A stretch of 64,000 bases of DNA from Candidatus Pacearchaeota archaeon (lineage in GTDB: Archaea; Nanobdellota; Nanobdellia; Pacearchaeales; GW2011-AR1). Below are positions 10,988 to 27,926 of the stretch, piece by piece. Both the position numbers and the translations under genes were made by a program. The notes under the pieces were generated by a model, which was not told the DNA's origin, did not search any database, and saw only the letters and a program-made list of their open reading frames with translations. How positions within the stretch are numbered: position 1 is the first letter of the stretch; each line of letters opens with the position of its first letter. The DNA is taken from NCBI GenBank assembly GCA_018303825.1, contig JAGVXK010000021.1, positions 7,752 through 71,751 on the forward strand, given 5' to 3'.

Positions 10988-11131
10988 CCTAATACCAAGG
11001 GTCTAGCCTTGGGGATTATGCTCGATGAAGATAAGTTGCTGATGAAATAACAAAGTTTTTTGCTTTCCAATGCCCTGAGGTTCTGCCTTAGAGTTTTTTA
11101 TAATAATGATATTTATAAATGAGCATTATTA

Positions 11132-12604
11132 GTGAATATTATGCCAGAAGTTCTTAAAATCCCCAGATGCATGAGCACACAGCATCCTGATAATGTTACA
11201 ATCCCTTTTTTTGCTGAAAACACTGAACTTGGGGGAGAGGACGAAATACAGGAAGCGTATTACGCTTTCTCCATTCTAGGATGCGATGAGCAGATGTGGG
11301 ACTGCGAAGGAAAAGAAATAGATAATTTCGTAGTTAAAAAATTATTAACAAAATATGAACCATTTTTTAGGGAAAGAATTCTTGGAAAAGATGTTTTTTT
11401 AACATTAAGAGTTCCAAATCCAACTATTGAAAAGTCAGAGGCAAAGATACTTCTTGAAACATTGGAAAGCATCCCAAGGTCATTCGACGCAGCAAAATTA
11501 TTCTATAGAAAAGATATAGCCCCCATATTTGAAGTCATATTGCCTATGACTGCCTCATCAAAATGCATTAACAGGGTGTATGGCTATTATTCAGATTTTG
11601 TTGTCGGAAAACAAAATGCTCTCTTTAAGGATGGGGTCACAATAGCTGACTGGATAGGTGAGTTTAAGCCTGAAAAAATCAATGTCATACCCCTATTTGA
11701 AGATATGCCCCATATGCTCAATGCAGATAAAATTGTAAGAGAATATCTGAAAGATAAAAATTTGAAATATCAAAGAGTTTTTCTGGCTAGATCGGATCCA
11801 GCGATGAATTACGGATTGATTAGCGCCGTGCTACTGAATAAAATAGCATTACATAGATTGCATGACGCGGAAAATGATATAGGAATCAGGATTTTTCCCA
11901 TAATCGGTGTTGGCTCCGCTCCATTTAGGGGAAATCTTAATCCGAAAAATATAGAAAATGTTCTGGGAGAATATCCATACACCCACACATTTACCATTCA
12001 GTCTGCATTCAAATACGATTACTCTCCAAACGACGTCAGAAAAGCTATGGAAAATATTCAATTGGCACAAATAATTGAACAAGAGGGAATAGATGAAGAA
12101 AAATCACTTGATATCATAGAAAGATATTCACAAGAATATCAGAAACAGGTAATTTATTTAGCAGATATTATAAATAAAGTTGCCAGATATGTTCCAAGCA
12201 GAAGAAAAAGAAAGCTGCACATTGGATTGTTTGGCTATTCAAGAGAAGTGGAAAAAGTGAAGCTACCCAGGGCGATAACATTTACAGCAGCGCTTTATTC
12301 CCTTGGTTTGCCTCCGGAACTGATTGGATTAAATGCCTTATCTGGCTCTGATTTTGACTTTTTAAGAAAAAATTACAACAGTTTTGATTCTGACATTAGA
12401 GATGCATTATCCTATTACAATCCAAATTCATTGAAATTTCTGGGTCTTTCAGAAGACATGATAAAAATTCCAGTCAAATGCGAAACCAATCAAAGCCATA
12501 AAGAATTGACAGATATTATTATCGATTCTTTGGAGAAAAATAATGTTGAAATACTCGACGAGAATATACTAAGAGCGGCTCATATAAGAAAATTCCTCGG
12601 ATAA
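11132..12604 (+). CDS. ppcA: Archaeal-type phosphoenolpyruvate carboxylase
   Basis: The N-terminal signature IPRCMSTQHPDN and a ~490-aa length are typical of the archaeal PEPC family. The ATG at 11141 may be the true start. Confidence 0.85.
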   Translation: MNIMPEVLKIPRCMSTQHPDNVTIPFFAENTELGGEDEIQEAYYAFSILGCDEQMWDCEGKEIDNFVVKKLLTKYEPFFRERILGKDVFLTLRVPNPTIEKSEAKILLETLESIPRSFDAAKLFYRKDIAPIFEVILPMTASSKCINRVYGYYSDFVVGKQNALFKDGVTIADWIGEFKPEKINVIPLFEDMPHMLNADKIVREYLKDKNLKYQRVFLARSDPAMNYGLISAVLLNKIALHRLHDAENDIGIRIFPIIGVGSAPFRGNLNPKNIENVLGEYPYTHTFTIQSAFKYDYSPNDVRKAMENIQLAQIIEQEGIDEEKSLDIIERYSQEYQKQVIYLADIINKVARYVPSRRKRKLHIGLFGYSREVEKVKLPRAITFTAALYSLGLPPELIGLNALSGSDFDFLRKNYNSFDSDIRDALSYYNPNSLKFLGLSEDMIKIPVKCETNQSHKELTDIIIDSLEKNNVEILDENILRAAHIRKFLG

Positions 12605-12614
12605 GAACAACTAG

Positions 12615-12636
12615 ATTTTATATTTTATTTATTCTT
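12615..12636 (+). terminator. T-rich post-stop motif ATTTTATATTTTATTTATTCTT (copy 2)
   Basis: Exact repeat of 10966-10987, located 11 nt after the PEP carboxylase stop. Confidence 0.4.
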
Positions 12637-12796
12637 TTTCATTCTTTTTGAATAAAATTGCCCCATTTTAACACCGATAAAAAATATGAAAATTCCCAGG
12701 ACCATAAGGAATAAACCACTATAAAGATTGGTCATGTCATGCATTAATAAGCTTGCCAAAGAAGGGTTAAAAATGTTATGTAATTGATTTAACTAA

Positions 12797-13069
12797 TCAT
12801 ACGGACTTCTCTTCCCAATTCAAGCCCGCACAATACGCAATTGTACATTTCACCAGCGCTGCCACATAAGGGTCCAATGTCATCATAATTGGACTTTGAT
12901 ACCCTCTCAAGAACAAACCCACAATTAGTACAATATAAGCATCGGTGACCCTATTACCAATAACCACAAAGTAGGTAGATAAGCTTCTACCCTCCTCACC
13001 TGTCGATTCAGATATATCTCCAAGTTTTCTTATCTTAGCTTTGGGGTTTTGCTCTTCGAATTCTTTCAT
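12797..13069 (-). CDS. Hypothetical protein (90 aa), possibly a remnant
   Basis: The ORF is open upstream of its Met without an ATG (..GIYARRLAEIKRVAREKKVAFAS-M..). No family recognised. Confidence 0.3.
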   Translation of the reverse strand: MKEFEEQNPKAKIRKLGDISESTGEEGRSLSTYFVVIGNRVTDAYIVLIVGLFLRGYQSPIMMTLDPYVAALVKCTIAYCAGLNWEEKSV

Positions 13070-16343: not shown

Positions 16344-16634
16344 CTAATGTTGCTCTAACTCTTCTTCTTGCATATACTGGCGAGCCTGATGTTTAAGGGC
16401 TTGATAGACAAGAATCATATCTGAAAATGTTCCAGCCCTTTGTTCCGGAGGATGTGATTCAGCAAGTGAAGCAATACAATCAGCCATTTTACGATTCTCA
16501 CGAACAATTTCTTCCATTCATGCACGAGATTGAGATAAATCAGTTGAAAGCATATGTCTGCCCATTAAGCTAATTGTTTGTCCAGTAATCACTGGCAGGC
16601 CATCTTCTGTGTACTTTTGATTATTTCTTTCCAT
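16344..16634 (-). pseudogene. Two abutting small ORFs (38 aa + 57 aa) separated only by TGA-ATG; possible disrupted gene
   Basis: Minus strand: MERNNQKYTEDGLPVITGQTISLMGRHMLSTDLSQSRA, then TGA (16518-16520), then MEEIVRENRKMADCIASLAESHPPEQRAGTFSDMILVYQALKHQARQYMQEEELEQH. A further start-less fragment lies at ~16735-16890. Confidence 0.3.
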
Positions 16635-16975
16635 TCTTCTTTCAAAAATACCGCATTTATAAATCTTCCCATTTATAACCACTATTAAGTTACATTAAAA
16701 TTTAAGTCCGGCATGATAATAAATTCTTAAAAGAAACGTGATTCTTGTCTTTTAAAGAACCTTTTTTCAAGTTTTCCACATATATCTGAAAATGTTCCTT
16801 CTGTCGGACCTTCTACAATAATCCCCACTGGGGCGCCATCCCTCCAATCGCCACTTGCATCATATTTGATTACTACATCCTCAAATAGATAAATATTGTG
16901 CTATATTATATTTCAGGATACAACACATGATTGCTGAATAGCAAAGTTTAAATAATCTGTTGTTACTTTAAAATT

Positions 16976-17569: not shown

Positions 17570-17620
17570 AAAATAGTTGGCACGTTAAGAAAGCCCCTCG
17601 TGTCTTGAATATTTGTTCGT

Positions 17621-17694
17621 GAATCTCTCTTCGAGTGGAATTGACGGCTATTTTAAGTTTGGATTTATGATTTGCGGTGGTGGGAAGGTGCGCT
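17621..17694 (-). repeat. Island repeat, inverted partial copy (arm A)
   Basis: Perfect reverse complements of blocks in copy B: 17681-17694 vs 18145-18158 (14 bp), 17661-17675 vs 18218-18232 (15 bp), 17639-17647 vs 18244-18252 (9 bp). Confidence 0.75.
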
Positions 17695-17701
17695 TTGTGC
17701 A

Positions 17702-18091
17702 TCAAATAGCTACTAATATACTCTCTTTTGCTCTGCTAGTCTCATCTGCAAATGGAACACCTCTCTTGTCATTATACCATCCATATGTTTCTACTTTAGC
17801 TCTTTGTTCTGCAAGTTTCTTTGCAATATCATGTGTTCTTTGCTCCACATTTTCACATTCATCGACTATTCCAATAACGCCATGCACATGTTCAATTCTA
17901 ACTTGCGCTCTATTTTCAAGTAACAAAATAACATATTTGCCATCAATTGGTTTTTCTGGAGTAGCAACTACTATCGTATTCCATACGTCATCTCTTAAAG
18001 GGTTAAAAAATTTAAAAGCAGATATATATTTATAGCCATCATTCCGTTCTGGTTTCCTTTCCTGCAAAACAATCCTTGGTCCGCTACCCAT
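17702..18091 (-). CDS. Hypothetical protein (129 aa) bracketed by inverted repeat arms
   Basis: Balanced, charged composition. The overlapping + strand ORF 17613..18035 is Ser/Cys/Leu-rich and starts inside the repeat. Confidence 0.55.
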   Translation of the reverse strand: MGSGPRIVLQERKPERNDGYKYISAFKFFNPLRDDVWNTIVVATPEKPIDGKYVILLLENRAQVRIEHVHGVIGIVDECENVEQRTHDIAKKLAEQRAKVETYGWYNDKRGVPFADETSRAKESILVAI

Positions 18092-18144
18092 CTTTAAACA
18101 ATATTCATCGCCCTTTTAATTATTTCTATATTGTAAAATATGTT

Positions 18145-18423
18145 AGCGCACCTTCCCATTTCTTATTCATCAATTATTTCGCGAAGCGACTATTTAGGGG
18201 CGGGTGGTCGGGGGAATGCAAATCATAAATCCGTTTAATATTTCCGTCAATTACGTTTAAGCGAGATTAAACTGTCTGCTTTCTGATTTGGGAAAGGGCT
18301 TAAGCGTAACGAGAAGAGAGATTGAGAATTATTTTCATTCTGAAAATAACTTCCTATTTAATTTATAATATTAAGAAGCAAATTTCAAGTTCATTTAATC
18401 GTTCAGGCTAAAAGAACTTTCAA
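18145..18423 (+). repeat. Island repeat copy 1, 5' half (B); candidate structured RNA or MITE-like element
   Basis: Hairpin tcgc-gaa-gcga at 18179-18189. G-rich block at 18197-18214. Hairpin cgtttaagc/gcttaagcg at 18254-18262/18298-18306. 28-nt block at 18396-18423 identical to 22758-22785. Confidence 0.7.
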
Positions 18424-18485
18424 CCAAAAGAAGACAAATCCGAAAAATATATATACCATGATTTATCACTATATTCAATTAACTC

Positions 18486-18509
18486 CATGAGATCTGTAAG
18501 GATCTCATG
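18486..18509 (+). promoter_or_regulatory. Perfect 9-bp inverted repeat catgagatc-tgtaag-gatctcatg just upstream of the NYN gene start
   Basis: 18486-18494 pairs with 18501-18509. It ends 9 nt before the ATG at 18518. Confidence 0.35.
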
Positions 18510-18517
18510 TTTTTTAT

Positions 18518-19066
18518 ATGAATTCCAAAAAAGAGAAGGTTGCGATTTACATCGATGGTAGTAATTTATATTTCTCAATAAAAGATACATTCAATTGTAA
18601 AATTGACTTAGAAAAATTCTGTAAAAAATTAGTGAATGATGATGATTTAGCGAAGATTAATTATTATATTGCTCCTGTTGAGCAATTAGAAAATCCTAAA
18701 GCATACGCTCAACAGCAATCATTCTTTGAAAAATTAAGGAAAATTGATAAACTAAATCTAATTTTTGGCAGGCTAGAAAAGAGAAAGAAAGATGGAGAAA
18801 TATACCATGTAGAAAAAGCAACAGATGTAAATCTTGCCCTTGATTTGGCTTTAGATGCACAAAAAGGGGAATATGATAAGGCTCTTCTTATCTCAAATGA
18901 TGGTGACTTTTCTGGAGCGGTAACTGCCGCAGTCAGTTTCAAAAGAAAAGTCATTTATATTGCCATAGGCACCAACAAATCTATATCTTATCATTTGAAG
19001 AAAGTGGCATCTGCAACCTTTCGAATTAATAAGGAATTCATTGATGAATGTAAATTGGATGAGTAG
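18518..19066 (+). CDS. NYN-domain (LabA/DUF88-like) protein
   Basis: VAIYIDGSNLYFS.. at the N-terminus and ..ALLISNDGDFSGAV.. match the NYN/LabA-type nuclease fold pattern. Confidence 0.75.
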   Translation: MNSKKEKVAIYIDGSNLYFSIKDTFNCKIDLEKFCKKLVNDDDLAKINYYIAPVEQLENPKAYAQQQSFFEKLRKIDKLNLIFGRLEKRKKDGEIYHVEKATDVNLALDLALDAQKGEYDKALLISNDGDFSGAVTAAVSFKRKVIYIAIGTNKSISYHLKKVASATFRINKEFIDECKLDE

Positions 19067-19144
19067 AGTTTTCGGCTATTAGTATATGGTGAAAGTTGGG
19101 TTAAATCTCGTTTCGAACTAAGAGAACAATTATGGAATAATTGA

Positions 19145-19326
19145 GAGATTTACCTTTTAGCAGAGATTAGGCGAGTCTGAAAGACCTCGAGCTACGAACT
19201 AAGAGTCTCGAGTTAGCTAAACCTCACAAGAATGGGCTCTTTGCGTAATTGCTGAGAATCTTATGTTCTTAGGGCATTTCATTTGTATCTGTCGGGGGCG
19301 CGTTTTTGCTTCTCGCAGAAAATCTC
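19145..19326 (+). repeat. Island repeat copy 1, 3' half (C)
   Basis: gagattaggcgag at 19163-19175 (identical to 22884-22896). ctcgag/ctcgag stem at 19186-19191/19207-19212. cgtaattg at 19244-19251. G-rich arm gtcgggggc.. at 19291-19326. Confidence 0.7.
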
Positions 19327-19409
19327 TGATTTTCTGAGCCATCAAGAACTTTGTTCTTGAGGTTTTCTGAAAAAGAAGATTTTTTATATGTTGTTTATTA
19401 TTAATATCT

Positions 19410-19727
19410 ATGACTTATGCAGTTTATACAACTGAGAGTTTTGATAAAGAGGTTGAGAAATTGTCTGGAGGAGACCGAGAGATAATTCAGAAAATGTTTT
19501 TTAAGATTAAAGACAATCCTTACGCCAGTAACCAATTAAGATACAAGAATCTTAGAGAGAAGCGAATTAGAGAAAAAAGAGTTTATTTTCTAGTTTATGA
19601 TGATTTGCGAGCAGTTCTTATTGTTGCTATAAGCGGTAAGAAAGACCAACAAGCAACAATCAATCATATAATCAATTACTTTGATGATTATAAAGAATAC
19701 TTGGAAAAATTGCTAGGAAAAGATTAA
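19410..19727 (+). CDS. relE: RelE/ParE-family toxin
   Basis: 105 aa. The pattern ..EKRIREKRVYFLVYDDLRAVLIVAISGKKDQ.. is typical of RelE/ParE mRNA-interferase toxins. Confidence 0.7.
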   Translation: MTYAVYTTESFDKEVEKLSGGDREIIQKMFFKIKDNPYASNQLRYKNLREKRIREKRVYFLVYDDLRAVLIVAISGKKDQQATINHIINYFDDYKEYLEKLLGKD

Positions 19728-19879
19728 GCAACCTGTCTTACTCTGCCAGCTTTAACATCTTCTAAACTTGCCTTGAACTGCCTTAATAAATCAAAGTCTA
19801 TCTTTTCTAGCTCTCTGAGCATAGCTACTTGAGCCTTCATCTTCTCGTATTCATCTTTTGGTACCTTTACCATTTCCAT
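19724..19879 (-). CDS. Small antitoxin-like protein (51 aa), convergent with and overlapping relE by 4 nt
   Basis: MEMVKVPKDEYEKMKAQVAMLRELEKIDFDLLRQFKASLEDVKAGRV resembles the C-terminal ..DIKAGRV helices of Phd/YefM-type antitoxins. Below the ORF-track cutoff. Confidence 0.4.
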   Translation of the reverse strand: MEMVKVPKDEYEKMKAQVAMLRELEKIDFDLLRQFKASLEDVKAGRVRQVA

Positions 19880-19936
19880 AAATATTTCTAAGAATCAAAG
19901 TTTTTAAGCTTTCTGGAAGTCACTTTTGCCCCCTTG

Positions 19937-20074
19937 TTATTGGTTAATTATCTCTATTTTGAGCTCTACTATCGTTCCCGGTTTTAGTCTCTCCTCTAAC
20001 AATTTAGGCATGATTATTATAGCTTGTTTGCCGTGCTTGGCGATTTTCTTGATTATTGTGAATTGAGTTGTCAT
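19937..20074 (-). CDS. AbrB/SpoVT-like small DNA-binding protein (45 aa)
   Basis: MTTQFTIIKKIAKHGKQAIIIMPKLLEERLKPGTIVELKIEIINQ follows the AbrB/MazE-type swapped-hairpin pattern (..G.s..v.iPk.l.e.l.l..G..v.i.i). Confidence 0.45.
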   Translation of the reverse strand: MTTQFTIIKKIAKHGKQAIIIMPKLLEERLKPGTIVELKIEIINQ

Positions 20075-20258
20075 CTTACTAATTTATAGATCTCATAAAT
20101 AGATACTCCTAAAATTGCATATCTTATTGCAATATTCTTTGCAAAATCCCAGAAAGGATTACCTAAGGGCGAGCCTAAAAATAAAGTATTAAACTTTATT
20201 CCAATAATCTATATTTTCCCACGAGATATCGTAGACAATTGTTTAAAAATTTACTAAC

Positions 20259-20429
20259 TTATTCTGCGGTGAGCCCTAAACTATCTTGATCTGGCAATGC
20301 ATCAGCATAGCAGTCATCTAACAATCTTTCATCAATTCTCTTCAAAGCCCTTCTTTCTCCAATAATTGGAATTGAATCTTTAACAAGTTCGACTAACGAA
20401 ATCTTTTTGTTATTTGCCTTCTCTTTCAT
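20259..20429 (-). CDS. Small hypothetical protein (56 aa), third gene of a minus-strand operon
   Basis: The ATG at 20429 lies 5 nt after the stop of 20435..21145. Translation: MKEKANNKKISLVELVKDSIPIIGERRALKRIDERLLDDCYADALPDQDSLGLTAE. Confidence 0.35.
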   Translation of the reverse strand: MKEKANNKKISLVELVKDSIPIIGERRALKRIDERLLDDCYADALPDQDSLGLTAE

Positions 20430-20434
20430 TTTTT

Positions 20435-21145
20435 CTAACCTCGTATTGAATCTTCTACAATTCTATTCACTTCTGAAAGTATGCGTTCCCTCGTTCTCTG
20501 ACCAAAAATCCTATGGATTAATGAACTATCGTCATAACTTTGTAAAACAAACTCAACATTTGGAGGAGATGTAAATTTCTTAAATCTTCTAAGGGGATAA
20601 ATAGTAGTAACTTTAACCACACAACCATTTTGTTCTCCACCATTTCTTCTTTCAAACAAATCTGTTTCTGCATTCTTTCCATATTCGTCTACTACTCGAT
20701 GGTCGTCTAATACTTGGAGGTATTGTAAATATGGAATTTGACCTTTAGGACAAACGTTTTTTGGTCTAAAACTAAAAGGTTCTTTGTTAATTTTATCTGC
20801 TACAAAGGTCAAGATGTCTTCGGGTGCCTTGAATAAATGTCTACCAAAATCCCTAAAATCTTGCCCTAAAATACCTATTTGAACGCCTTCCCTAGCAGAA
20901 AAACTATAATCTTTCTTTGTATCAAATTCTGTCCAAATATGCCCGCCTAGACTCTCTAAGTGCCCAGTACCATCCAGATGGTTTACAAGAAAAGCGGGCC
21001 AAGTTCCCTTATTGTAATATCCTACCTGACATCCTGTAATTCTTACATTGCCCATTCCATGCAAAAGGTACATTAAATGCTCTGGGCTAATACTATCAAA
21101 TATGGCACTGTTTTGTACTCTCTTATCATACTTTTGTTCAATCAT
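20435..21145 (-). CDS. Hypothetical protein (236 aa)
   Basis: Long ORF with normal composition. Its start overlaps the stop of the upstream gene (ATGA). His/Gly-rich segment HLDGTGHLESLGGHIW. No family recognised. Confidence 0.6.
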   Translation of the reverse strand: MIEQKYDKRVQNSAIFDSISPEHLMYLLHGMGNVRITGCQVGYYNKGTWPAFLVNHLDGTGHLESLGGHIWTEFDTKKDYSFSAREGVQIGILGQDFRDFGRHLFKAPEDILTFVADKINKEPFSFRPKNVCPKGQIPYLQYLQVLDDHRVVDEYGKNAETDLFERRNGGEQNGCVVKVTTIYPLRRFKKFTSPPNVEFVLQSYDDSSLIHRIFGQRTRERILSEVNRIVEDSIRG

Positions 21146-21723
21146 TTTCTTTCACCTCCGAATTTTTTCTGAAGAAAATCCAATGCTAGTTGCCTTTCTC
21201 TTTCTGATTCAAAAATAACAAGGGGCCTTGGCCAAGGTTTGTTACATTTTTTAATAAAAAATTCAAGCAGGGATTGATGAGAAGAAGCTAATAGATGATC
21301 AAACCCGCTAGGGGTTAAATCTGAGTAACCTGGTGTCATCGGGCGACCTATTTTGTCTGCGATAGAATTAACCTCATAGGGTCTTGGTGTGAATGATAAC
21401 GCATAAACCCTCAAACTATCTCCAAACCTACCTGTATTGACGTGCTGAATTAGGCATAATTGATCTCCCAAATAAAGATGCATTTGCATATCCATTTTAT
21501 CTCTTTCATCCGCATTACAATAAATACGCCCGCCAGGAACAACGGGTGATGCTCCGCATAGAGTTATTTCGCCAAACTGAGCAACCCTCTCTAAGTAAAT
21601 TGGACCCCCATCATTAAATCTCGGTGCACATAATGATAAGTTAACACTTCTCTCTCTACAAAAAATTGCGTTTGCCATTTCTTGATGGGCGTCTTTTCTT
21701 TCTATGTTTAATCTTATTCTCAT
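21142..21723 (-). CDS. Hypothetical protein (193 aa)
   Basis: First gene of the operon divergent from the TrmB-like gene at 21852. No family recognised. Confidence 0.6.
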   Translation of the reverse strand: MRIRLNIERKDAHQEMANAIFCRERSVNLSLCAPRFNDGGPIYLERVAQFGEITLCGASPVVPGGRIYCNADERDKMDMQMHLYLGDQLCLIQHVNTGRFGDSLRVYALSFTPRPYEVNSIADKIGRPMTPGYSDLTPSGFDHLLASSHQSLLEFFIKKCNKPWPRPLVIFESERERQLALDFLQKKFGGERK

Positions 21724-21851
21724 TTTCTATTTCTCCCAAGTTTATTTACTATCATAAGATAATGGCATAATAAAGTGTATTTAAATTATTGTTGTAAGGA
21801 AGCTATTAACAATTTAGAAAGAATTAAATATAACAATTCACTTGATTTTAT

Positions 21852-22565
21852 ATGGAAATAACTACACTCGAGAGTCTTGGAATGAACAAAACAGAGGCCA
21901 AAGTATATCTGGCTTTACTTGAATTGGGAGAAGTACAAGCAGGACAGATAAGTAAAAAATCAGGAGTTAATAGAACAAGCACGTATGATTCATTAGAAAG
22001 ACTAATATCGAAGGGTCTCGTTAAATATGTTATTCAATCAAATAAAAAGGTATTCGGGGCAGATAAACCCAATAAAATAGTTGAGCAATTAAAAGAACAG
22101 GAGAGAATAGCTAAGCAAATACTGCCAGAACTTAATAATTTGTTTAAAGAATCAAAAAAAGATGAGGAATCTGAGATCTATAAAGGCAGAAAAGGGATAA
22201 GGTCTATCTTGTTTGAAATAGTAAAATATAAAGAATATATTGCTTTTGGCTCAAAAGGCAAGTTTTTAGAGATAATGAAGCACGATTTTGAGATTTTTCA
22301 AAAAAGGAAGAAAAAATTAAAGATAAAAGCCAGAGTAATATTAAGAGAATCTGATAGGACTTCTGAATCTGTTAAGGTTGCTTATAGTGATTTTAAATTT
22401 GTTCCTGATGAATATGGATCTCCGACTACTACATTTGTTTATGGAAATAATATTGCCATAATTGTCTGGCTGTCTGAGCCAATCGCTACAGTAATAAAGA
22501 GTAAAGAGGTCGCTGAAAGCTATTCGCATTATTTTGAACTACTTTGGAAACTCGCAAAGCCCTAG
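21852..22565 (+). CDS. TrmB-family transcriptional regulator (paralog 1)
   Basis: The N-terminal winged helix LESLGMNKTEAKVYLALLELGEVQAGQISKKSGVNRTSTYDSLERLISKGLV is a typical TrmB HTH. Confidence 0.8.
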   Translation: MEITTLESLGMNKTEAKVYLALLELGEVQAGQISKKSGVNRTSTYDSLERLISKGLVKYVIQSNKKVFGADKPNKIVEQLKEQERIAKQILPELNNLFKESKKDEESEIYKGRKGIRSILFEIVKYKEYIAFGSKGKFLEIMKHDFEIFQKRKKKLKIKARVILRESDRTSESVKVAYSDFKFVPDEYGSPTTTFVYGNNIAIIVWLSEPIATVIKSKEVAESYSHYFELLWKLAKP

Positions 22566-23037
22566 ATGATACCTTCTTCGGCGTGAGCCGAAGCTCTCTG
22601 TGCGAAGCACCCAAGCCCCCGACCAATTTCTGTTTGACTGAAATGCCTACAATCAGCAATTTCGTTTAAGCTTGATTAAACCTTTGGATTTTTTGTTAGT
22701 GGCTTAAGCGGAGCAAAGAGCCAATTACTATTTTAAAGTTGAGGTTTACTTTTCGTCTAATCGTTCAGGCTAAAAGAACTTTCAAGGCAATTGTTAAAAG
22801 TCAAAATAATTGAAAGTTACAGAAAATTATGGTTTCCATAAAGGAAATACTTTAGGATAAAGTAAATAATTTTTCTTTTAGTGGAGATTAGGCGAGTCCA
22901 AAGGACCTCTTGGTGCGAATTAAGAGCCAAGAGTTAGTAAACCACAACGAAATATTTGCGAATAAGTGTAATTGCTGGCTATTTTGGTTTTGGGGCTGGC
23001 GAGGCGTTTTTCTAAGGGGCACTTTTTCCTAGTCTAA
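22566..23037 (+). repeat. Island repeat copy 2 (D), full length; candidate structured RNA or MITE-like element
   Basis: GNRA hairpin cttcggc-gtga-gccgaag at 22576-22593. gtgc-gaa-gcac at 22600-22610. C-rich block at 22611-22623. Hairpin at 22663-22671/22702-22710. 28-nt block at 22758-22785. gagattaggcgag at 22884-22896. Stem at 22907-22913/22927-22933. aattgctg at 22970-22977. G-rich arm at 22992-23027. Confidence 0.75.
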
Positions 23038-23544
23038 CTAGTTAATTAAAAACCTATAATAAGATGTAAGAAAATCCAAATTATCTTTAGGATTTATATT
23101 CATATTTCCCTCTCCTGTAAAAATAACCTTGTCCCTGAGAGGATATAATGGTGACGACCTAAACTCTACATATCCAACTCCCGCCACCCTAAACCATGGC
23201 TCAAAGTCATCATGACCACCCGTGGGCAAAATTATCCCATTTCTAATCTCACTCAAAATATGTACAATTTCTGATCTATCCCTCATTCTTGTCAATTTAG
23301 CAAAATTGAATTTTGTTATTGCATGTGCAACAAGCTTCCTATAAAACTCTGTGCCATACTCGTGATCTGAATTTGAATCGAAGTTCCTTCGACAAAAATG
23401 AAATTCCAGAGGATTTCCTTCAAAATTGGATGACTTAATCAAATTAAGACTATCTTCCAAAAACACGTCTAACGCATTCCGAATACACAACGGGTACTTA
23501 CCAACCCTTCTGAATATAAACGCGTCATCATATAACTTCTCCAT
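23038..23544 (-). CDS. Hypothetical protein (168 aa)
   Basis: Divergent from the TrmB-like gene at 23630. No family recognised. Confidence 0.6.
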   Translation of the reverse strand: MEKLYDDAFIFRRVGKYPLCIRNALDVFLEDSLNLIKSSNFEGNPLEFHFCRRNFDSNSDHEYGTEFYRKLVAHAITKFNFAKLTRMRDRSEIVHILSEIRNGIILPTGGHDDFEPWFRVAGVGYVEFRSSPLYPLRDKVIFTGEGNMNINPKDNLDFLTSYYRFLIN

Positions 23545-23629
23545 GAACTCTCTGTCTTGCCTAGTCTTTTAAATCTTAGTTGTTATTATTAATAACAACA
23601 TTTAAATAATCACTACAATAAAACTAATA

Positions 23630-24337
23630 ATGGAAGAACTCATAGAAAATTTAAAAATGGCCGGTCTAACTGGAAATGAATCAAAAGTTTACGTAGGTCT
23701 AATTAAGATTGGAGAAACTTCAGCCAACGAATTAGCAAAAAATCTGAGTTTAGACAGAACATTAACATATACTATTCTAAACCATTTAATAGAAAAGGGA
23801 ATGGTTGGCTATGTTATCAAAGCAAATAAAAAGTTCTTCTCGGCATCTGAACCACAAAACCTATTAAATAAAATAAAAAAAGATGAAACAGCGATAAAAA
23901 GAGTGATAGAAACTTTAAAAACAATGAAAACAACAAACGAGCCCTCCCCGAAAGTGAATGTTTATGATGGGAAAGAGGGACTCAGAACATTCTTAAGGCT
24001 TCTGACAAAAGATAAGAAGATTTCTGCATTTGGAGCGACAGGCAGATTATATGACTCTCTCTTCGAAACAGAAGCCATCGCAAAAGAATTAAAAAAAACA
24101 TTATCTGCTAGAATTATTGCTAGTAATAAATATCGCACCCATCCAATTAGGAAAATAAAGAGAATTGAAGTAAGATATTTAGATGTGGACAACGAGGCAA
24201 CAACAACCATTTTCGGAGATTATATTGCCCTACATCTTTTAACAGATAAACCATTCATAATAACAATCAAGAACAAAGAAATTGCGCATGGTTATCTAAA
24301 CTATTTCAATCTTCTCTGGAAAATCGCCAAGAAATAA
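23630..24337 (+). CDS. TrmB-family transcriptional regulator (paralog 2)
   Basis: LKMAGLTGNESKVYVGLIKIGETSANELAKNLSLDRTLTYTILNHLIEKGMV. Its C-terminus ..YLNYFNLLWKIAKK parallels ..YSHYFELLWKLAKP of paralog 1. Confidence 0.8.
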   Translation: MEELIENLKMAGLTGNESKVYVGLIKIGETSANELAKNLSLDRTLTYTILNHLIEKGMVGYVIKANKKFFSASEPQNLLNKIKKDETAIKRVIETLKTMKTTNEPSPKVNVYDGKEGLRTFLRLLTKDKKISAFGATGRLYDSLFETEAIAKELKKTLSARIIASNKYRTHPIRKIKRIEVRYLDVDNEATTTIFGDYIALHLLTDKPFIITIKNKEIAHGYLNYFNLLWKIAKK

Positions 24338-24797
24338 TCTGAAAAAGTGCCCCGTTCTGCTGTTTGATAATTATTGTTCGTATTTTCGCCAACAGGCGAC
24401 TATCTGTGCGTAGCACCACCGAGCCAGCCCCTATCGAACTTCCAGCAATTTTGTTTAAACTAGATTAAACGCTCTGCGTCTGATTTCTGAAAATGGTTTA
24501 AACGAAACGAATGAGCAAATCCCTAAAGAGGTTTACTTATCGTTTAATCGTTCGTAATAAGAGTGGTTTTAGCCATTAATACTTAAATCGTATGAGCTAA
24601 AACTAAGACTAAATTCCGTCTTTCTACTAAAGAAAGTATTTCAGGATGAAATAAGGAATTTATCTCTTATGTGAGATTAGCCGACCACTTTAGTAGCGCG
24701 AGCTGATTACGAAAATCCTCGCGACTTTTGCTTTGTTCTCAGCCGATTTCGAAGCGTAATTGCCAAGATTTATAAAGTAGTAGATTTTATTTAGATT
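24338..24797 (+). repeat. Island repeat copy 3 (E), near full length
   Basis: aaaaagtgcccc at 24342-24353. Hairpin tcgcc-aaca-ggcga at 24386-24399. gtgc-gta-gcac at 24406-24416. gccagcccc at 24423-24431. Hairpin gtttaaac/gtttaaac at 24453-24460/24496-24503. gagattagccgac at 24673-24685. Stem cgcgag/ctcgcg at 24697-24702/24718-24723. aattgc at 24758-24763. Confidence 0.75.
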
Positions 24798-25085
24798 ATG
24801 GGTTGGAAAAACTGGAGTTATTGGTTGAGAGGAGGTTTTTTGCTAGCAACGATTTACTTTATTTATACTTTACTTATAAATCAATTATATGGGACAGTTA
24901 TAAAAGCAGGATTATATCGCATATTATATGAGGTCGGATATCCCTTCAATTTTGTACGGTTTTTGGTTATGGGCTTTAATGAATCATTCATAGCCATAAT
25001 TTTCAGTTGGATAATTGCATATATTGTCTTTTTCCTTCTTGGAGCAATAATTGGTTGGATCGTTGGTAAAATAAAATCTAAGTAA
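24798..25085 (+). CDS. Small membrane protein (95 aa)
   Basis: Three hydrophobic segments. Flanked on both sides by island repeat copies. Confidence 0.55.
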   Translation: MGWKNWSYWLRGGFLLATIYFIYTLLINQLYGTVIKAGLYRILYEVGYPFNFVRFLVMGFNESFIAIIFSWIIAYIVFFLLGAIIGWIVGKIKSK

Positions 25086-25100
25086 TTCTTTTTTGAATAA

Positions 25101-25367
25101 TTGGCAATTTCGTTTAAGCAAGCTATTGTGCGACATCTCTGATTCGCACCCAGCGGTTAAGCGGAGCGAGAAATTAACGGGCTGAGAATTGCAAGCCGAA
25201 AGGGGCAAGAGTTTACAGGCAATATTCTATTTGTTACTATGGAAACTCTGAAGGGGAAGGGGCTTTCTTTTTCTTGAGGGGATTTGCAACCCGAGCGATA
25301 GCGAAGGGCAAAGCAAAAGTTTGGTTAATCATACTTAAACGAACATTAAGAATGAAAAAGAAAGGAT
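25101..25367 (+). repeat. Island repeat copy 4 (F), partial and rearranged
   Basis: ggcaatttcgtttaagc at 25103-25119, with the 3' arm ggttaagcggagcgag at 25155-25170. The inner stem gtgcga../..tcgcac replaces the usual loop. Further fragments are gagtttac and cttaaacgaac. Confidence 0.55.
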
Positions 25368-27926
25368 TTAACCTAATATGCTCAAATTCACTTGGACTTC
25401 TGGTTCTTTTGGAACTTTAACAATATCCGCCACTTTGTCTCCTTCTTTCAACTTAACCACATGGACTCCCTGCGTGGCTCTTCCCATGACTCTCAAGTCC
25501 CTCATGCTCGTTCTAAGGACCATCCCTTTTGTTGTCGTTATTATCACAGAATCACGGTCGTTGACACACAAAGAAGAGATGACATTTCCTGTTCTTTCAG
25601 AAACATCAAGACTAATTACTCCTTTTGCGCCCCTCGATGTCTTCCTATATTCTTCTAAATCTGATCTCTTCCCGAATCCTTTTTCTGCTACGGTAAGTAT
25701 TGTTGTTTTCCCATTCATCGGAAGACTTTCAAGAGCGACAACTTCATCTGTCTTTCCTAATTCTGCGCCTTTTACCCCATAAGATACCCTTCCCATAGGC
25801 CTTACCTCGTCGCTGTTGAATCTAACCGCCTGCCCTTTCTTTGTGACAAGCATTACTTCCTGCTTATCTATGACATGACTTACATTGATTAAAATATCAG
25901 AATTATCTGCCGGGAGATTTATTACCCTAACGCCCGTATTTCTTGGTTTGCTCAAATCTTTCAGTGGAAGCTTCTTTACCATTCCAAGTTTCGTGGCAAA
26001 CATCAAATATCCCACATCGAAATTCTTTACAGCTTTTACATTTGCTATGGCTTCATCTCTTAAACTTAAAAGATTGACAATTGCTTTCCCCTTTCCTTGT
26101 CTTTCTGCTGATGGAATATCATTTGCTTTCAGCCAATAAACCCTCCCCCTTGTTGTGAAGAACAATAAGAAATCATGTGTTGAGCAGGTAAGCATCTTGT
26201 TTACAAAATCTTCCTCTTTAAGTTCTGCCCCGCTTGTTCCAGCTCCGCCCCTCTTCTGCTCTTTATATGCCTTAACATCAACTCTCTTCACATATCCTGA
26301 GTTTGTAATCATAATGACAACATCTTTCTTCTCAATAAGGTCTTTTTCTGTTATTTCCTCAACCCTTCTTAATATTCTTGTTCTTCTCTCATCACCATAT
26401 TTTGTCTTAAATTCCTGAACCTCTCTCTTTATAACCTTTAGAATTTCTTTTTCGTCTCCAAGAATTTTCTTCAAGTCAGAAATTCCCTCTTTAAGCTTCT
26501 TTTCCTCATCCCTGAGCTTTCCTTCTTCTAATCTTGTCAATTGCTGCAATCTTATCTCCAAAACTGCCCTTGCCTGCTTATCAGTCAAAGAGAATTTCTT
26601 CATTAAGCCATCGTGTGCATCTGTCGCATTAGCTGATTTTTTGATAAATTCAACAACTTTATCAATATTCTTCTGCGCAATTAAAAGACCTAAGACAATT
26701 TCAAGCCTTTCTTCAGCTTTCTTCAATTCAAACTTGCTTCTATTCCTGACTATTAATCTTCTGTATTTGATATATTCTTCAATTATCTGCTTCAAATTAA
26801 GAACAACCGGCTTATTTCCAACAAGAGCAAGAAGATTTGCATCAAAACTCGTTTCCAGGTTAGTTGAAGTGTAAAGCTTGTTCAATGTAAATTTAGAATC
26901 AACTTCTTTTTTCAATTCAACAACAATTCTTACCTTTCCTTTGGAAGATTCGTCTCTTAAGTCATAAACATCTGGGAGCTTTTTCTCAGTTGCAAGCCTT
27001 GCAATCGATGTAACAAGATCAGACTTGTTAACCATGTAAGGTATTTCATTAATGATTATGATTGGCCTCCCTTTGCGCTCTTCAACTGTTGTTTTTCCTC
27101 TTATTACAATTTTTCCCTTTCCAGACTTATACATATCTTTTATTCCGTCTCCAAATATCTGTCCCCCTGTTGGAAAATCAGGGCCCTTTACTACTTCAGC
27201 AAGTTCATCTATAGTTATTTCCGGCTTGTTTATGCATTCAATTATTGCATCGCATACTTCTGTTAGATTATGGGGGGGAATATTTGTGGCCATTCCTACA
27301 GCTATTCCCGTAGCCCCATTAATTAGTAAATTTGGCAATTTCGCAGGAAGTGTTTCCGGCTCTTTTGTTGAATTATCGAAGTTAGGCCTCATCTTCACAG
27401 TTTCTTTATCAATGTCTTCAATTAATTCCTGTGAAATCTTTGAAAGTTTTACTTCTGTGTATCTTTGTGCTGCCGGACTATCTCCATCGAGTGAACCAAA
27501 ATTTCCTTGCCCGTGCACAAGTGGGTATCTTAAAGAAAAATCCTGTGCCATTCTCACGAGAGAATCATATACTGCAATATCACCATGTGGATGATACTTT
27601 CCTAAAACTTCTCCTACTACTGCCGCTGATTTTCTTGTTGGCTTGCTCGCATCAAGCCCAATAGAATGCATCGCATATAAAATTCTTCTGTGCACAGGTT
27701 TTAACCCATCCTCAACACTTGGAAGTGCTCTCTGAACAATAACGGACATTGCATAATCTATATATGCCTGCTCCATTTCCTCGACTATTTCCACGTTTGC
27801 TACGCCCTTCTCAACTTCTCCCTTTGCTCTTCTTTCCTGCTCTTTCTTTTCTGCTTCTATATCTATCTTTTTCTCTGTTTCATTCCCATTGCAATTTCCA
27901 TTTTTGTTTTCTTGCTTCTCCGCCAT
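25368..27926 (-). CDS. gyrA: DNA gyrase subunit A
   Basis: [29 protein letters not shown], with the active-site Tyr region ..[10 protein letters not shown].. and C-terminal beta-pinwheel repeats. 852 aa. Confidence 0.95.

What the first reader, a model, noticed from the sequence alone, without database searches (positions are those of the whole stretch)
17570..25367. 7.8-kb accessory island: small gene cassettes separated by copies of one diverged modular element
The island lies between the Tyr/Asn-rich secreted-protein gene (ends 17569) and gyrA (ends 25368). Nearly every intergenic gap carries a copy or fragment of one composite element, all but one in + orientation. The copies are A 17621-17694 (inverted partial), B 18145-18423 plus C 19145-19326 (one copy split by an ORF), D 22566-23037 and E 24338-24797 (full, ~460-470 nt), and F 25101-25367 (partial). 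The copies are diverged but share exact blocks. These are the 28-nt taatcgttcaggctaaaagaactttcaa (18396-18423 = 22758-22785), gagattaggcgag (19163-19175 = 22884-22896), and the caatt-[at][ct]-gtttaa[ga]c hairpin foot in B, D, E and F. The genes in between are accessory-type: NYN, RelE, antitoxin-like ORFs, two TrmB-like regulators and five unknowns. No recombinase or transposase is encoded inside the island. I do not recognise the element as a described RNA family, MITE or attC.
Basis: partly seen in the sequence, partly recalled or inferred. Interest (0 to 1): 0.85.

Follow-up and report, generated by a model that had tools for sequence, protein, structure and literature searches.

The report
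Gene cassettes held in RNA hairpin loops
The repeats between the genes of this Pacearchaeota island belong to a widespread, apparently undescribed family of structured RNA modules in DPANN archaea that pair with their neighbours, so that each accessory gene sits in the loop of a conserved hairpin.

Summary
The repeats are real and are not a local duplication. They resolve into two alternating modules, M1 (135-300 nt) and M2 (about 200 nt), plus an optional leader, M0. A motif from M1 found about 100 further loci, nearly all in Pacearchaeota, Woesearchaeota and Nanoarchaeota assemblies. None matches Rfam 15. Of 517 module copies, 515 share the strand of their array.

M2 shows very strong covariation: 25 of 26 pairs carry compensatory changes, and the covariation score is 0.72 against 0.20 for shuffles.

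Neighbouring modules pair with each other in a neighbour-specific way:
- The 3' strand of M1 pairs into the following M2. A hairpin (Hy) lies between them.
- The 3' end of M2 pairs with the 5' end of the next M1 across the intervening gene or genes (Hx).

Permuted partners never reach the observed pairing. The pairing is stronger on the module strand in 56 of 67 cases.

Genes therefore sit in hairpin loops. They include NYN nuclease, TrmB regulators, small membrane proteins and predicted toxin-antitoxin-like pairs. No recombinase recurs, and there are no attC core sites.

Relatives with about 81% GyrA identity lack the island at the syntenic site.

I read this as a periodic RNA scaffold that carries accessory gene cassettes. 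Its function is inferred, not shown.

The parts
17586..17696 (+). The Hx1 5' arm AATTGACGG is at 17639-17647. Tail arms are at 17661-17675 and 17681-17694.
   Evidence: nhmmer M2 profile hit. It is 77-97% identical to M2 3' parts in 14 other loci, in the same relative orientation.
17702..18091 (-). ORF129, the cargo gene in the loop of long-range helix Hx1. It has no family hit.
   Evidence: ORF list. No Pfam, NCBIfam or PADLOC hit. It is flanked by complementary arms (I13, I14, I21).
18145..18243 (+). M0 leader of unit B. Positions 18145-18158 and 18218-18232 pair with the tail of the preceding M2. It contains the G-rich tract GGGGCGGGTGGTCGGGGG. A TATA-like CTATATT lies about 20 nt upstream.
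   Evidence: The tail/leader duplex is more stable for true neighbours than for permuted partners.
18244..18426 (+). The Hx1 3' arm CCGTCAATT is at 18244-18252. The P2 hairpin is CGTTTAAGC...GCTTAAGCG. The 3' strand TAATCGTTCAGGCTAAAAG (18396-18414) pairs into M2 C. The Hy 5' arm AACTTTCAA is at 18415-18423.
18427..19076 (+). Loop of hairpin Hy, filled with the NYN nuclease gene (18518-19066) and its own AT-rich upstream region.
   Evidence: Pfam NYN E=8e-19. PADLOC HEC-09 E=2e-26. NYN lies between M1 and M2 in about 10 loci.
19077..19335 (+). The Hy 3' arm TGAAAGTT is at 19090-19097. CTTTTAGCAGAGATTAG (19154-19170) pairs with the 3' strand of M1 B. The Hx2 5' arm AATTGCTG is at 19247-19254. 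The tail is G-rich and contains a T5 run.
19336..22566 (.). Cargo of Hx2, 3.2 kb: ORF105 (+), ORF51 (-), ORF45 (-), ORF56 (-), ORF236 (-), ORF193 (-) and TrmB1 (21852-22565, +).
   Evidence: TrmB Pfam E=3e-17. The others have no hits.
22567..22652 (+). M0 leader, variant ii, of unit D.
   Evidence: nhmmer. Alignment of leaders.
22653..22785 (+). M1 module of D. The Hx2 3' arm CAGCAATT is at 22654-22661. The 3' strand is at 22758-22776. The Hy 5' arm is at 22777-22785.
22786..23037 (+). Empty Hy loop (22786-22809) followed by M2 of D. The Hy 3' arm is at 22810-22818. CTTTTAGTGGAGATTAG is at 22875-22891. The Hx3 5' arm AATTGCTGG is at 22970-22978. Tail arms are GGGGCTGGC (22992-23000) and GGGGCACTTTTTC (23016-23028).
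23038..24337 (.). Cargo of Hx3: ORF168 (-) and TrmB2 (23630-24337, +).
24341..24440 (+). M0 leader of E. GAAAAAGTGCCCC (24341-24353) and GCCAGCCCC (24423-24431) pair with the tail of M2 D.
24441..24577 (+). M1 module of E. The Hx3 3' arm CCAGCAATT is at 24442-24450. P2 carries the compensatory variant GTTTAAAC/GTTTAAAC. The 3' strand ...ATAAGAG is at 24545-24563. The Hy 5' arm GGTTTTAGC is at 24565-24573.
24588..24797 (+). M2 module of E. The Hy 3' arm GCTAAAAC is at 24596-24603. CTCTTATGTGAGATTAG is at 24664-24680. The Hx4 5' arm AATTGCCAA is at 24758-24766. It is followed at once by the TATA-like box TTTATAAA (24769-24776), 22-29 nt before the ORF95 ATG.
24798..25085 (+). ORF95, a small predicted membrane protein and the cargo of Hx4. 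Homologues sit directly upstream of a long-form M1 in about 7 other loci.
25101..25373 (+). The Hx4 3' arm TTGGCAATT is at 25101-25109. The terminal cap hairpin is GGTTAATC (25323-25330) with GGATTTAACC (25364-25373), and it overlaps the gyrA stop codon.
   Evidence: It is 88% identical to copies in L020, L054, L060 and L075. Arrays end in M1 in 30 of 33 cases.

Best explanation
The intergenic repeats are copies of a family of structured RNA modules, restricted so far to DPANN archaea, that has no Rfam match and that I could not find described. An array is a periodic chain (M0)-M1-Hy-M2-Hx-(M0)-M1-..., all on one strand.

How the chain is built:
- M1 and M2 each have their own fold.
- The 3' strand of M1 forms a long helix with the M2 that follows it.
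- The 3' end and tail of M2 pair with the 5' end, or M0 leader, of the next M1.
- The two connecting hairpins, Hy and Hx, are the only places where genes occur. Hx is almost always filled and Hy is filled in about a quarter of cases.

Each accessory gene or gene group is therefore a loop closed by a conserved helix.

Most likely mechanism (inferred): the array is transcribed on the module strand. Some of this is read-through from same-strand cargo. Some starts at promoters in front of the M0 leaders. The modules then fold, in cis or by tail-to-head annealing of consecutive transcripts, into a scaffold that clamps, insulates, stabilises or marks each cistron for processing.

Inferred consequence: because the modules are conserved between genomes, they also act as portable homology, and cassettes can be exchanged by recombination. 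This would explain why each window copy is closer to copies in other genomes than to its neighbours.

Shown here: the family, its structure, the neighbour-specific pairing, the strand specificity, the grammar of the arrays and the accessory nature of the island. Inferred: transcription, cis versus trans pairing, and the function.
For: Spread:
- The M1 motif hits 18 loci in species-level genomes, 16 of them DPANN, and 86 metagenome loci.
- nhmmer finds about 185 M1 and about 150 M2 copies in 101 and 88 loci.

Grammar:
- 515 of 517 module copies lie on the majority strand of their locus.
- Of 106 M1-to-M2 junctions, 78 abut with a gap under 120 nt, typically 6-23 nt. Of 125 M2-to-M1/M0 junctions, 122 hold genes.
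- Arrays end in M1 in 30 of 33 cases.

Structure:
- M2: 94.6% of cells are paired against 67% in shuffles, 563 double-change cells against 160, and a covariation score of 0.72 against 0.20 (0 of 500 shuffles reach it). Slid controls reach at most 0.12.
- M1: 94.5% paired against at most 48.5% in slid controls.

Neighbour-specific pairing:
- Hx: 9.26 of 10 positions paired, against 7.09 for the same unit and 7.84 for random partners. In the variable 5 nt the value is 4.36 against 3.04 (0 of 2000 permutations).
- Hy: 7.73 against 6.63 (0 of 1000).
- M1 3' strand with M2: 6.43 of 7 against 5.47 (0 of 2000).
- Tail/leader duplex energy: -50.0 against -39.4 kcal/mol.

Strand specificity:
- G.U outnumbers A.C by 46 to 12 in Hx.
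- The + strand duplex is the more stable in 56 of 67 cases, p=1e-8.

Co-orientation of cargo: 55 same-strand against 14 opposite in single-ORF Hx loops.

Transcription signals:
- M1 starts 0-35 nt after the stop codon of same-strand cargo.
- M0 leaders, with TATA-like boxes upstream, appear behind divergent cargo.
- T5+ runs are roughly four times more frequent in M2 tails than my rough composition-based estimate predicts.

An uninterrupted Hx exists in L049, as a plain hairpin with completely different arms.
Against: - No transcript data were available, so transcription of the modules is not shown.
- About 20% of single-gene cargo, and most multi-gene cargo, include genes on the opposite strand. 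Cis pairing would then require antisense read-through.
- The T-runs in M2 tails and the promoter placed right after the Hx 5' arm suggest that the cargo's own mRNA lacks the 5' arm.
- The 5' 75 nt of M1 is almost invariant in sequence. This conservation exceeds what structure alone requires and could reflect recognition by a protein, possibly at the DNA level.
- G.T wobble pairs are also tolerated in single-stranded DNA, so the strand bias does not strictly exclude a + strand ssDNA intermediate.
- No molecular function has been demonstrated.
Confidence: 0.5

Rival explanations
1. Each (M0)-M1-M2 stretch is a separate non-coding RNA gene of about 350-470 nt with its own start and a terminator in the M2 tail. 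The RNAs anneal tail-to-head in trans, much as the split tRNA halves of Nanoarchaeum equitans do, and build a multi-RNA assembly or ribonucleoprotein. The genes between them are hitch-hiking accessory genes, and gene expression is not the point of the RNA.
For: - T5+ runs are enriched after the M2 anchor.
- TATA-like boxes lie 20-25 nt upstream of M0 starts.
- In the window, the last nucleotides of an M2 tail are exactly complementary to the first nucleotides of the next M0: 17681-17694 with 18145-18158, and 23016-23028 with 24341-24353.
- Pairing persists across cargo on the opposite strand.
Against: - Long-form M1 copies start 0-35 nt after the stop codon of same-strand cargo, which leaves no room for a promoter.
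- 80% of single-gene cargo is co-oriented with the modules. Pure hitch-hiking does not predict this.
- Hy loops also hold genes inside the presumed RNA.
Confidence: 0.25
2. The modules act as single-stranded DNA. They would be folded recombination or transposition sites for cassette capture and excision, as in integron attC sites or the ends of IS200/IS605 elements. The Hx stem would bring the two ends of a cargo segment together so that an enzyme encoded elsewhere can cut it out.
For: - The organisation looks like a cassette array, with toxin-antitoxin-like pairs, a restriction-modification set (judged by eye) and many unknown genes.
- The fold is strand-specific.
- Cargo differs between genomes while the modules are shared.
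- The island is absent from the syntenic site in relatives.
- M1 commonly ends in TTTCAA. From memory, IS608 right ends end in TCAA.
Against: - No integrase, HUH transposase or TnpB-like ORF was found in the window island, and none recurs among the flanking genes in the roughly 100 loci.
- The island has no attC R''/R' core pairs.
- M1 and M2 have multi-helix folds with conserved loops, including a three-way junction in M2. These are far more elaborate than known ssDNA sites.
- The module orientation follows the gene orientation.
Confidence: 0.15
3. The repeats are passive. They would be leftovers of segmental duplication of genes together with their UTRs, or of a decayed MITE-like element, and have no function of their own.
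For: D and E each follow a paralogous TrmB gene. That arrangement could come from a tandem duplication.
Against: - Compensatory changes are massive.
- The complementarity is specific to neighbours.
- The modules are conserved across many DPANN genomes with different cargo.
- Window copies are closer to foreign copies (86-97% identity) than to one another (67-78%).
- The two ends of one unit are not complementary (7.09 of 10 paired, against 7.84 for random partners).
Confidence: 0.05

Closest known systems
Integron cassette arrays (attC sites, including arrays without an integrase; reported in Archaea in PMC9668308)
   Same: - Arrays of small, mostly co-oriented accessory genes, with toxin-antitoxin-like pairs, restriction-modification and unknown genes.
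- The genes are separated by a repeated element whose fold is strand-specific.
- A recombinase is often absent from the contig.
   Different: - The element here is 350-470 nt, built of two sequence-conserved multi-helix modules.
- There are no RYYYAAC/GTTRRRY core sites and no IntI.
- The genes lie inside hairpin loops rather than between hairpins.
- The arms pair across the cargo.
Bacterial intergenic repeat elements transcribed within operons (REP/BIME, ERIC, Correia elements)
   Same: They are mosaic, intergenic and transcribed with flanking genes, and they form RNA hairpins that affect mRNA stability, processing or termination (my own knowledge).
   Different: - Those elements are short (35-150 nt), species-specific and mostly simple palindromes.
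- Here the modules are large and conserved across orders of DPANN archaea.
- They show covariation in many helices.
- They pair with their neighbours over 0.3-3.4 kb.
rRNA operon processing stems (RNase III stems in bacteria, bulge-helix-bulge stems in archaea)
   Same: Long-range helices, formed by the sequences on either side of a functional unit, loop that unit out of a long transcript.
   Different: - The enclosed units are protein-coding genes.
- I saw no bulge-helix-bulge motif in the folded window examples, only a conserved U.U mismatch.
- The flanks are themselves large structured modules.
Split tRNA genes of Nanoarchaeum equitans (Randau et al. 2005, cited from memory)
   Same: It is a DPANN lineage in which separately encoded RNA pieces are joined through a complementary 3' trailer and 5' leader.
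   Different: No tRNA is involved. Splicing and ligation are not shown here. The pieces are about 400 nt long and arranged in periodic arrays.
ORF-bearing group I and group II introns, and archaeal rRNA introns
   Same: A protein-coding ORF is tolerated in a peripheral loop of a conserved RNA fold. Versions with and without the ORF coexist.
   Different: - No Rfam intron model matches.
- No host gene is interrupted.
- The cargo is diverse and is not a maturase or homing endonuclease.
Large ornate bacterial RNAs of unknown function (OLE, GOLLD, ROOL)
   Same: They are large, intricate, highly conserved non-coding RNAs found in accessory or mobile regions. OLE is associated with small membrane proteins (my own knowledge).
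   Different: There is no sequence or model similarity. The elements here are archaeal, periodic and multi-copy, with genes embedded in them.

Membership tests
Any Rfam 15 RNA family | A covariance-model match at or near the family's gathering score. | tested here: not met
   In the whole window only three tRNAs reach threshold. The island at E<=10 gives only chance hits of 15-21 bits. F alone gives nothing. D alone gives at best 19 bits against thresholds of 39-100.
Integron (attC cassette array) | attC sites of 57-141 nt with an inverse core RYYYAAC and a core GTTRRRY flanking an imperfect hairpin. | tested here: not met
   The island has 0 core-site pairs on either strand, against 8 in the rest of the window. 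This was a regex test. The attC covariance model was not available.
Integron (attC cassette array) | An IntI tyrosine recombinase adjacent to the array. It may be missing in arrays that lack an integrase. | tested here: not met
   No PF00589-type hit among the island proteins. No recombinase cluster among the genes flanking about 85 loci.
MITE / non-autonomous DNA transposon | Terminal inverted repeats at the two ends of one element copy. | tested here: not met
   The ends of the same M1-M2 unit pair less well (7.09 of 10) than random partners (7.84). The complementarity is with the neighbouring unit instead (9.26 of 10).
MITE / non-autonomous DNA transposon | Target-site duplications, and filled versus empty sites in close relatives. 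| tested here: inconclusive
   Near-identical strains (L001-L005) have the same array. The nearest relatives, at about 81% GyrA identity, lack the whole island. No single-element empty site could be compared.
IS200/IS605-type element or TnpB/IscB guide RNA | An adjacent tnpA, tnpB or iscB gene, with the RNA scaffold overlapping the end of that gene. | tested here: not met
   No such ORF is in the island. None appears among the recurrent flanking clusters. The HEARO (IscB) model in Rfam does not match.
Group I / group II intron | The conserved catalytic core detected by Rfam models, and insertion in a host gene. | tested here: not met
   No hit to an intron model at E<=10. The elements lie between genes.
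Archaeal bulge-helix-bulge splicing substrate | Two 3-nt bulges separated by a 4-bp helix at the base of the enclosing helix. | tested here: inconclusive
   Hx is a continuous helix of about 12 bp with one conserved U.U or G.A mismatch. No canonical motif is visible in folded examples. Relaxed variants were not searched systematically.
Structured non-coding RNA (generic) | Statistically supported compensatory base changes, and strand-specific G.U pairs. | tested here: met
   M2 has 25 of 26 pairs with double changes, and 0 of 500 shuffles reach the score. Neighbour helices are beaten by 0 of 1000-2000 permutations. G.U outnumbers A.C 46 to 12, and + strand duplexes are favoured in 56 of 67 cases.
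Structured non-coding RNA (generic) | Evidence of transcription. | not testable with these tools
   No transcriptome data were available. There are only indirect signals: TATA-like boxes before M0 and T-runs after M2.

The most novel reading that the evidence does not exclude
The arrays are a new kind of archaeal genetic element: an RNA-level cassette holder. Consecutive structured modules zip together, in cis or by trailer-leader annealing as in split tRNAs. Every accessory gene then becomes a closed loop on a periodic RNA scaffold. The helices would serve as sites for processing, for example by the NYN nuclease that is often embedded in the array, or for excision and circularisation of individual mRNAs. 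The same modules would provide the homology by which cassettes move between DPANN genomes without a dedicated recombinase.
Probability: 0.3. Interest if true: 0.92.

Novelty: categorically new. Interest (0 to 1): 0.88.

Why it matters
DPANN archaea have tiny genomes, and very little is known about their non-coding RNA or about how they gain and lose genes.

This work shows a family of large RNA-like modules with very strong covariation, present in many Pacearchaeota, Woesearchaeota and Nanoarchaeota genomes. Its grammar, with genes in hairpin loops and pairing between neighbours, matches no element class I know of or could find.

If the modules act as RNA, they would be a new way of organising and expressing accessory genes. 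If they act as DNA, they would be a new cassette-capture system.

Either way, the family gives a concrete handle on how accessory genes are organised and exchanged in DPANN archaea. The handle consists of covariance models, defined helices and more than 100 loci. It also gives clear predictions that existing groundwater metatranscriptomes can test.

Tried and rejected
- **Known RNA families.** Rfam at gathering and at E<=10, on the whole window, the island, and D and F alone. Nothing was found.
- **RNase P, SRP RNA and rRNA fragments.** Considered from sequence motifs and rejected. There is no model hit, and the element is multi-copy.
- **attC sites.** Regex test for core sites. None found.
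- **MITE.** The ends of the same unit are not complementary.
- **Viral or plasmid origin.**
  - The M1 motif gave 0 hits in IMG/VR.
  - A looser M2 pattern gave 120 hits, all of them chance, since none was confirmed by the module profiles.
  - blastn against the phage and plasmid collections found nothing.
- **Bulge-helix-bulge motif at the helices.** Not seen.
- **Hidden recombinase or defence system among the unknown ORFs.** NCBIfam and PADLOC gave only the NYN/HEC-09 hit.
- **Literature.** Six full-text searches found no description of these elements.
- **Regex classification of the G-rich M0 variant.** It failed, so the link between M0 and divergent cargo rests on the distance distribution only.
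- **Origin of replication.** The GC-skew turn lies near 12 kb, not in the island, and follows a switch in gene strand.

Full report
**Source and setting.** The window comes from a Candidatus Pacearchaeota (DPANN) genome. One tRNA carries a 55-nt intron at the canonical position. The GyrA protein is named Pacearchaeota in public records. The same contig recurs in Rifle aquifer metagenomes.

The island at 17570-25367 lies between a Tyr/Asn-rich secreted-protein gene and the 3' end of gyrA. Pfam confirms the NYN gene and the two TrmB genes. The NYN protein also hits the PADLOC candidate defence family HEC-09 at E=2e-26.

**Checking the observation.**
- The exact blocks and coordinates are as reported.
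- The motif CAATTWYGTTTAARC-N20-50-TTAARCGNARCRA occurs four times on the + strand of the island, with none expected by chance.
- blastn shows that D and E are 67% identical over about 250 nt, that B and C match the two halves of D, and that there are no copies elsewhere in the 64 kb.
- Rfam 15 gives no match under any setting.

**The element is widespread.**
- The motif found 18 loci among 185,579 species-level genomes. Sixteen are Pacearchaeota, Woesearchaeota, Nanoarchaeota or Parvarchaeum assemblies, and the two bacterial hits look like chance.
- It found 86 loci in metagenomes and none in IMG/VR.
- Nearly every non-coding piece of the island has homologues at 70-97% identity in these loci. 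These are usually closer than the copies within the window are to each other.

**Modules and grammar.** I ran three rounds of nhmmer with the window pieces as seeds. This resolved two main modules plus a leader.

| Module | Size | Copies found | Window coordinates |
|---|---|---|---|
| M1 | 135-300 nt | about 185 in 101 loci | 18244-18426, 22653-22785, 24441-24577, 25101-25350 |
| M2 | about 200 nt | about 150 in 88 loci | 17586-17696 (3' part only), 19077-19335, 22805-23037, 24588-24797 |
| M0 (optional leader before M1) | 50-105 nt | 31 hits with the G-rich window seed | 18145-18243, 22567-22652, 24341-24440 |

- Of 517 module instances, 515 lie on the majority strand of their locus.
- Modules alternate strictly.
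- M0 always abuts M1.
- M1 is followed directly by M2, typically with a gap of 6-23 nt, in 78 of 106 junctions. The other 28 have gaps of 120 nt or more, typically a 470-700 nt insert holding a gene.
- M2 is followed by gene(s) before the next M0 or M1 in 122 of 125 junctions.
- Arrays end in M1 in 30 of 33 cases where the downstream DNA is free of modules. In the window, and in several other loci, the terminal M1 carries its own cap hairpin in place of an M2 partner.

**Structure within the modules.**
- I aligned 76 non-redundant M2 copies with MAFFT, without fitting to a structure. RNAalifold predicts 26 pairs, and 25 of them carry compensatory double changes.
- In that alignment 94.6% of cells are paired, against 67.2% in column shuffles. 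There are 563 double-change cells against 160. The covariation score is 0.72 against 0.20, and 0 of 500 shuffles reach it. Slid controls reach at most 0.12.
- M2 consists of a three-way junction, a conserved GAUUA(A/G)NCGA segment, two further hairpins, and the conserved GCGUAAUUGC near its 3' end.
- The 5' 75 nt of M1 is almost invariant in sequence across 40 copies that are otherwise less than 90% identical. Covariation there is therefore sparse, but 94.5% of cells pair, against at most 48.5% in slid controls.

**Pairing between neighbours (the main new result).**
1. *M1 with the following M2.* The 3' strand of M1, UUAAUC...xxAAACG, pairs with M2's CGUUUxx...GAUUAA. Pairing is 6.43 of 7 against 5.47 for permuted partners (0 of 2000). 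Pair types include CUAAAAG/CUUUUAG, GUAAACG/CGUUUAC, CUAAGCG/CGCUUAG and AUAAGAG/CUCUUAU.
2. *Hairpin Hy.* The last 9 nt of M1 pair with the first nucleotides of the next M2, for example ACUUUCAAG with UUGAAAGU or AGUUUUAGG with CCUAAAACU. Pairing is 7.73 of 9 against 6.63 (0 of 1000). The loop is either about 34 nt or 500-700 nt with a gene.
3. *Hairpin Hx.* M2's AAUUGnnnnn pairs with nnnnnCAAUU at the start of the next M1, across 260-3410 nt of cargo.
   - Pairing is 9.26 of 10, against 7.09 for the M1 of the same unit and 7.84 for random partners.
   - In the five variable positions it is 4.36 against 3.04 (0 of 2000).
   - All four window junctions obey this rule.

   | Junction | M2 arm | Next M1 arm |
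   |---|---|---|
   | Hx1 | AATTGACGG | CCGTCAATT |
   | Hx2 | AATTGCTG | CAGCAATT |
   | Hx3 | AATTGCTGG | CCAGCAATT |
   | Hx4 | AATTGCCAA | TTGGCAATT |
4. *Tail with leader.* Where an M0 leader is present, it pairs extensively with the preceding M2 tail. Duplex energy is -50.0 kcal/mol for true neighbours against -39.4 for permuted partners.

It is the tail of an M2 pairing with the leader of B around ORF129. One uninterrupted Hx exists in L049, and it is a plain 9-bp hairpin with entirely different arms.

**Strand specificity.** In Hx, G.U pairs outnumber A.C mismatches 46 to 12. The duplex is more stable on the module strand than on its complement in 56 of 67 junctions, with a mean difference of -7 kcal/mol and Wilcoxon p=1e-8. 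A symmetric double-stranded inverted repeat would show no such bias. The pairing is therefore selected on a single strand of the module sense, most simply RNA.

**Cargo and signals.**
- Genes that recur next to modules, as clusters of predicted ORFs in the ±3 kb around the M1 motif, are an unannotated 99-aa + 86-aa gene pair that looks like a toxin-antitoxin pair by eye (14 loci), TrmB-like regulators (13), NYN (10), a small membrane protein (8), a JAMM-like protein judged by eye (6) and a gene pair that looks like PIN + AbrB by eye (5). No recombinase recurs.
- One array carries what looks by eye like a restriction enzyme, a C5 methyltransferase and Vsr.
- Single-ORF Hx loops are co-oriented with the modules in 55 of 69 cases.
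- M1 starts 0-35 nt after the stop codon of same-strand cargo. Behind divergent cargo there are 100-160 nt of leader, with a TATA-like box 20-25 nt before the M0 start.
- T5+ runs in the 120 nt after the M2 anchor are roughly four times more frequent than my rough composition-based estimate predicts.
- In the window, a TTTATAAA box follows the Hx4 5' arm at once and lies 22-29 nt before the ORF95 ATG.

**The island is accessory.** Three relatives with about 80-81% GyrA identity carry no module within 10 kb of gyrA. One of them keeps the order DsbA, then a homologue of the secreted protein, then gyrA and gyrB, with only about 500 nt where the window has 7.8 kb.

**Interpretation.**
- Shown: the family exists and has conserved structure, neighbour-specific and strand-specific pairing, a strict grammar and an accessory nature.
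- Best-supported reading: a periodic RNA scaffold in which accessory genes are looped out of conserved hairpins. Whether the pairing is in cis on read-through transcripts or in trans between consecutive transcripts cannot be settled without RNA data.
- Main rival: a single-stranded DNA recombination mechanism. Against it are the lack of any recurrent recombinase, the absence of attC core sites and the elaborate folds of the modules.
- Function (inferred): clamping, insulation, processing or stabilisation of cistrons, plus portable homology for cassette exchange.
- Novelty: six full-text searches and Rfam 15 gave no earlier description. I therefore rate it categorically new. The caveat is that only open-access literature could be searched.

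Noticed in passing
window 57592-57719 (-): A tRNA gene with a 55-nt intron at the canonical anticodon-loop position. Rfam finds it but ARAGORN does not. It marks the genome as archaeal.
   Followed up: partly
window 18518-19066 (+): The NYN-domain protein matches the PADLOC candidate defence family HEC-09 (E=2e-26) better than the generic NYN model. Its homologues repeatedly sit in the M1-M2 hairpin loop in other loci.
   Followed up: partly
window about 11000-13000: The cumulative GC skew turns from rising to falling near 12 kb, where the predominant gene strand switches from + to -. It probably reflects coding-strand composition rather than an origin of replication.
   Followed up: no
window 16518-16975: About 460 nt upstream of the secreted-protein gene have no ORF longer than about 55 aa and no module hit. 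The content is unexplained.
   Followed up: no
window 18195-18215, and M0 leaders in L022, L026, L056, L059, L069, L086: M0 leaders carry a nearly invariant G-rich tract, GGGGCGGGTGGTCGGGGG, that is left unpaired opposite the M2 tail. It could form a G-quadruplex or be a protein-binding site.
   Followed up: no
window 24769-24798: A TTTATAAA box lies 22-29 nt upstream of the ORF95 ATG, which implies a leaderless mRNA. The same box is conserved in M2 tails that precede the small membrane-protein gene in L018, L036, L049, L060 and L073.
   Followed up: partly
L071 3985-6325: One cargo segment between modules looks, by eye only, like a restriction endonuclease, a C5 DNA methyltransferase and a Vsr-like endonuclease. 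That would be a defence-type cassette.
   Followed up: no
L114 6494-9691 and 12711-17228: In a relative with 81% GyrA identity, gyrB is called in three pieces with intein-splicing domains. The neighbouring SMC gene carries an intein with a LAGLIDADG endonuclease.
   Followed up: no
L030, L069, L081 (e.g. L081 ORF at -1320..-730 relative to the M1 motif): A protein of about 196 aa, which looks by eye like an IS630/Tc1-type transposase N-terminal domain, lies near arrays in three loci. It is too rare to be the array's recombinase, but it is the only transposase-like gene I saw.
   Followed up: no
window 18459-18516: A perfect hairpin, CCATGAGATC-TGTAAG-GATCTCATG, lies between an AT-rich TATA-like stretch and the NYN start codon. 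It may be a leader structure specific to the NYN cassette.
   Followed up: no
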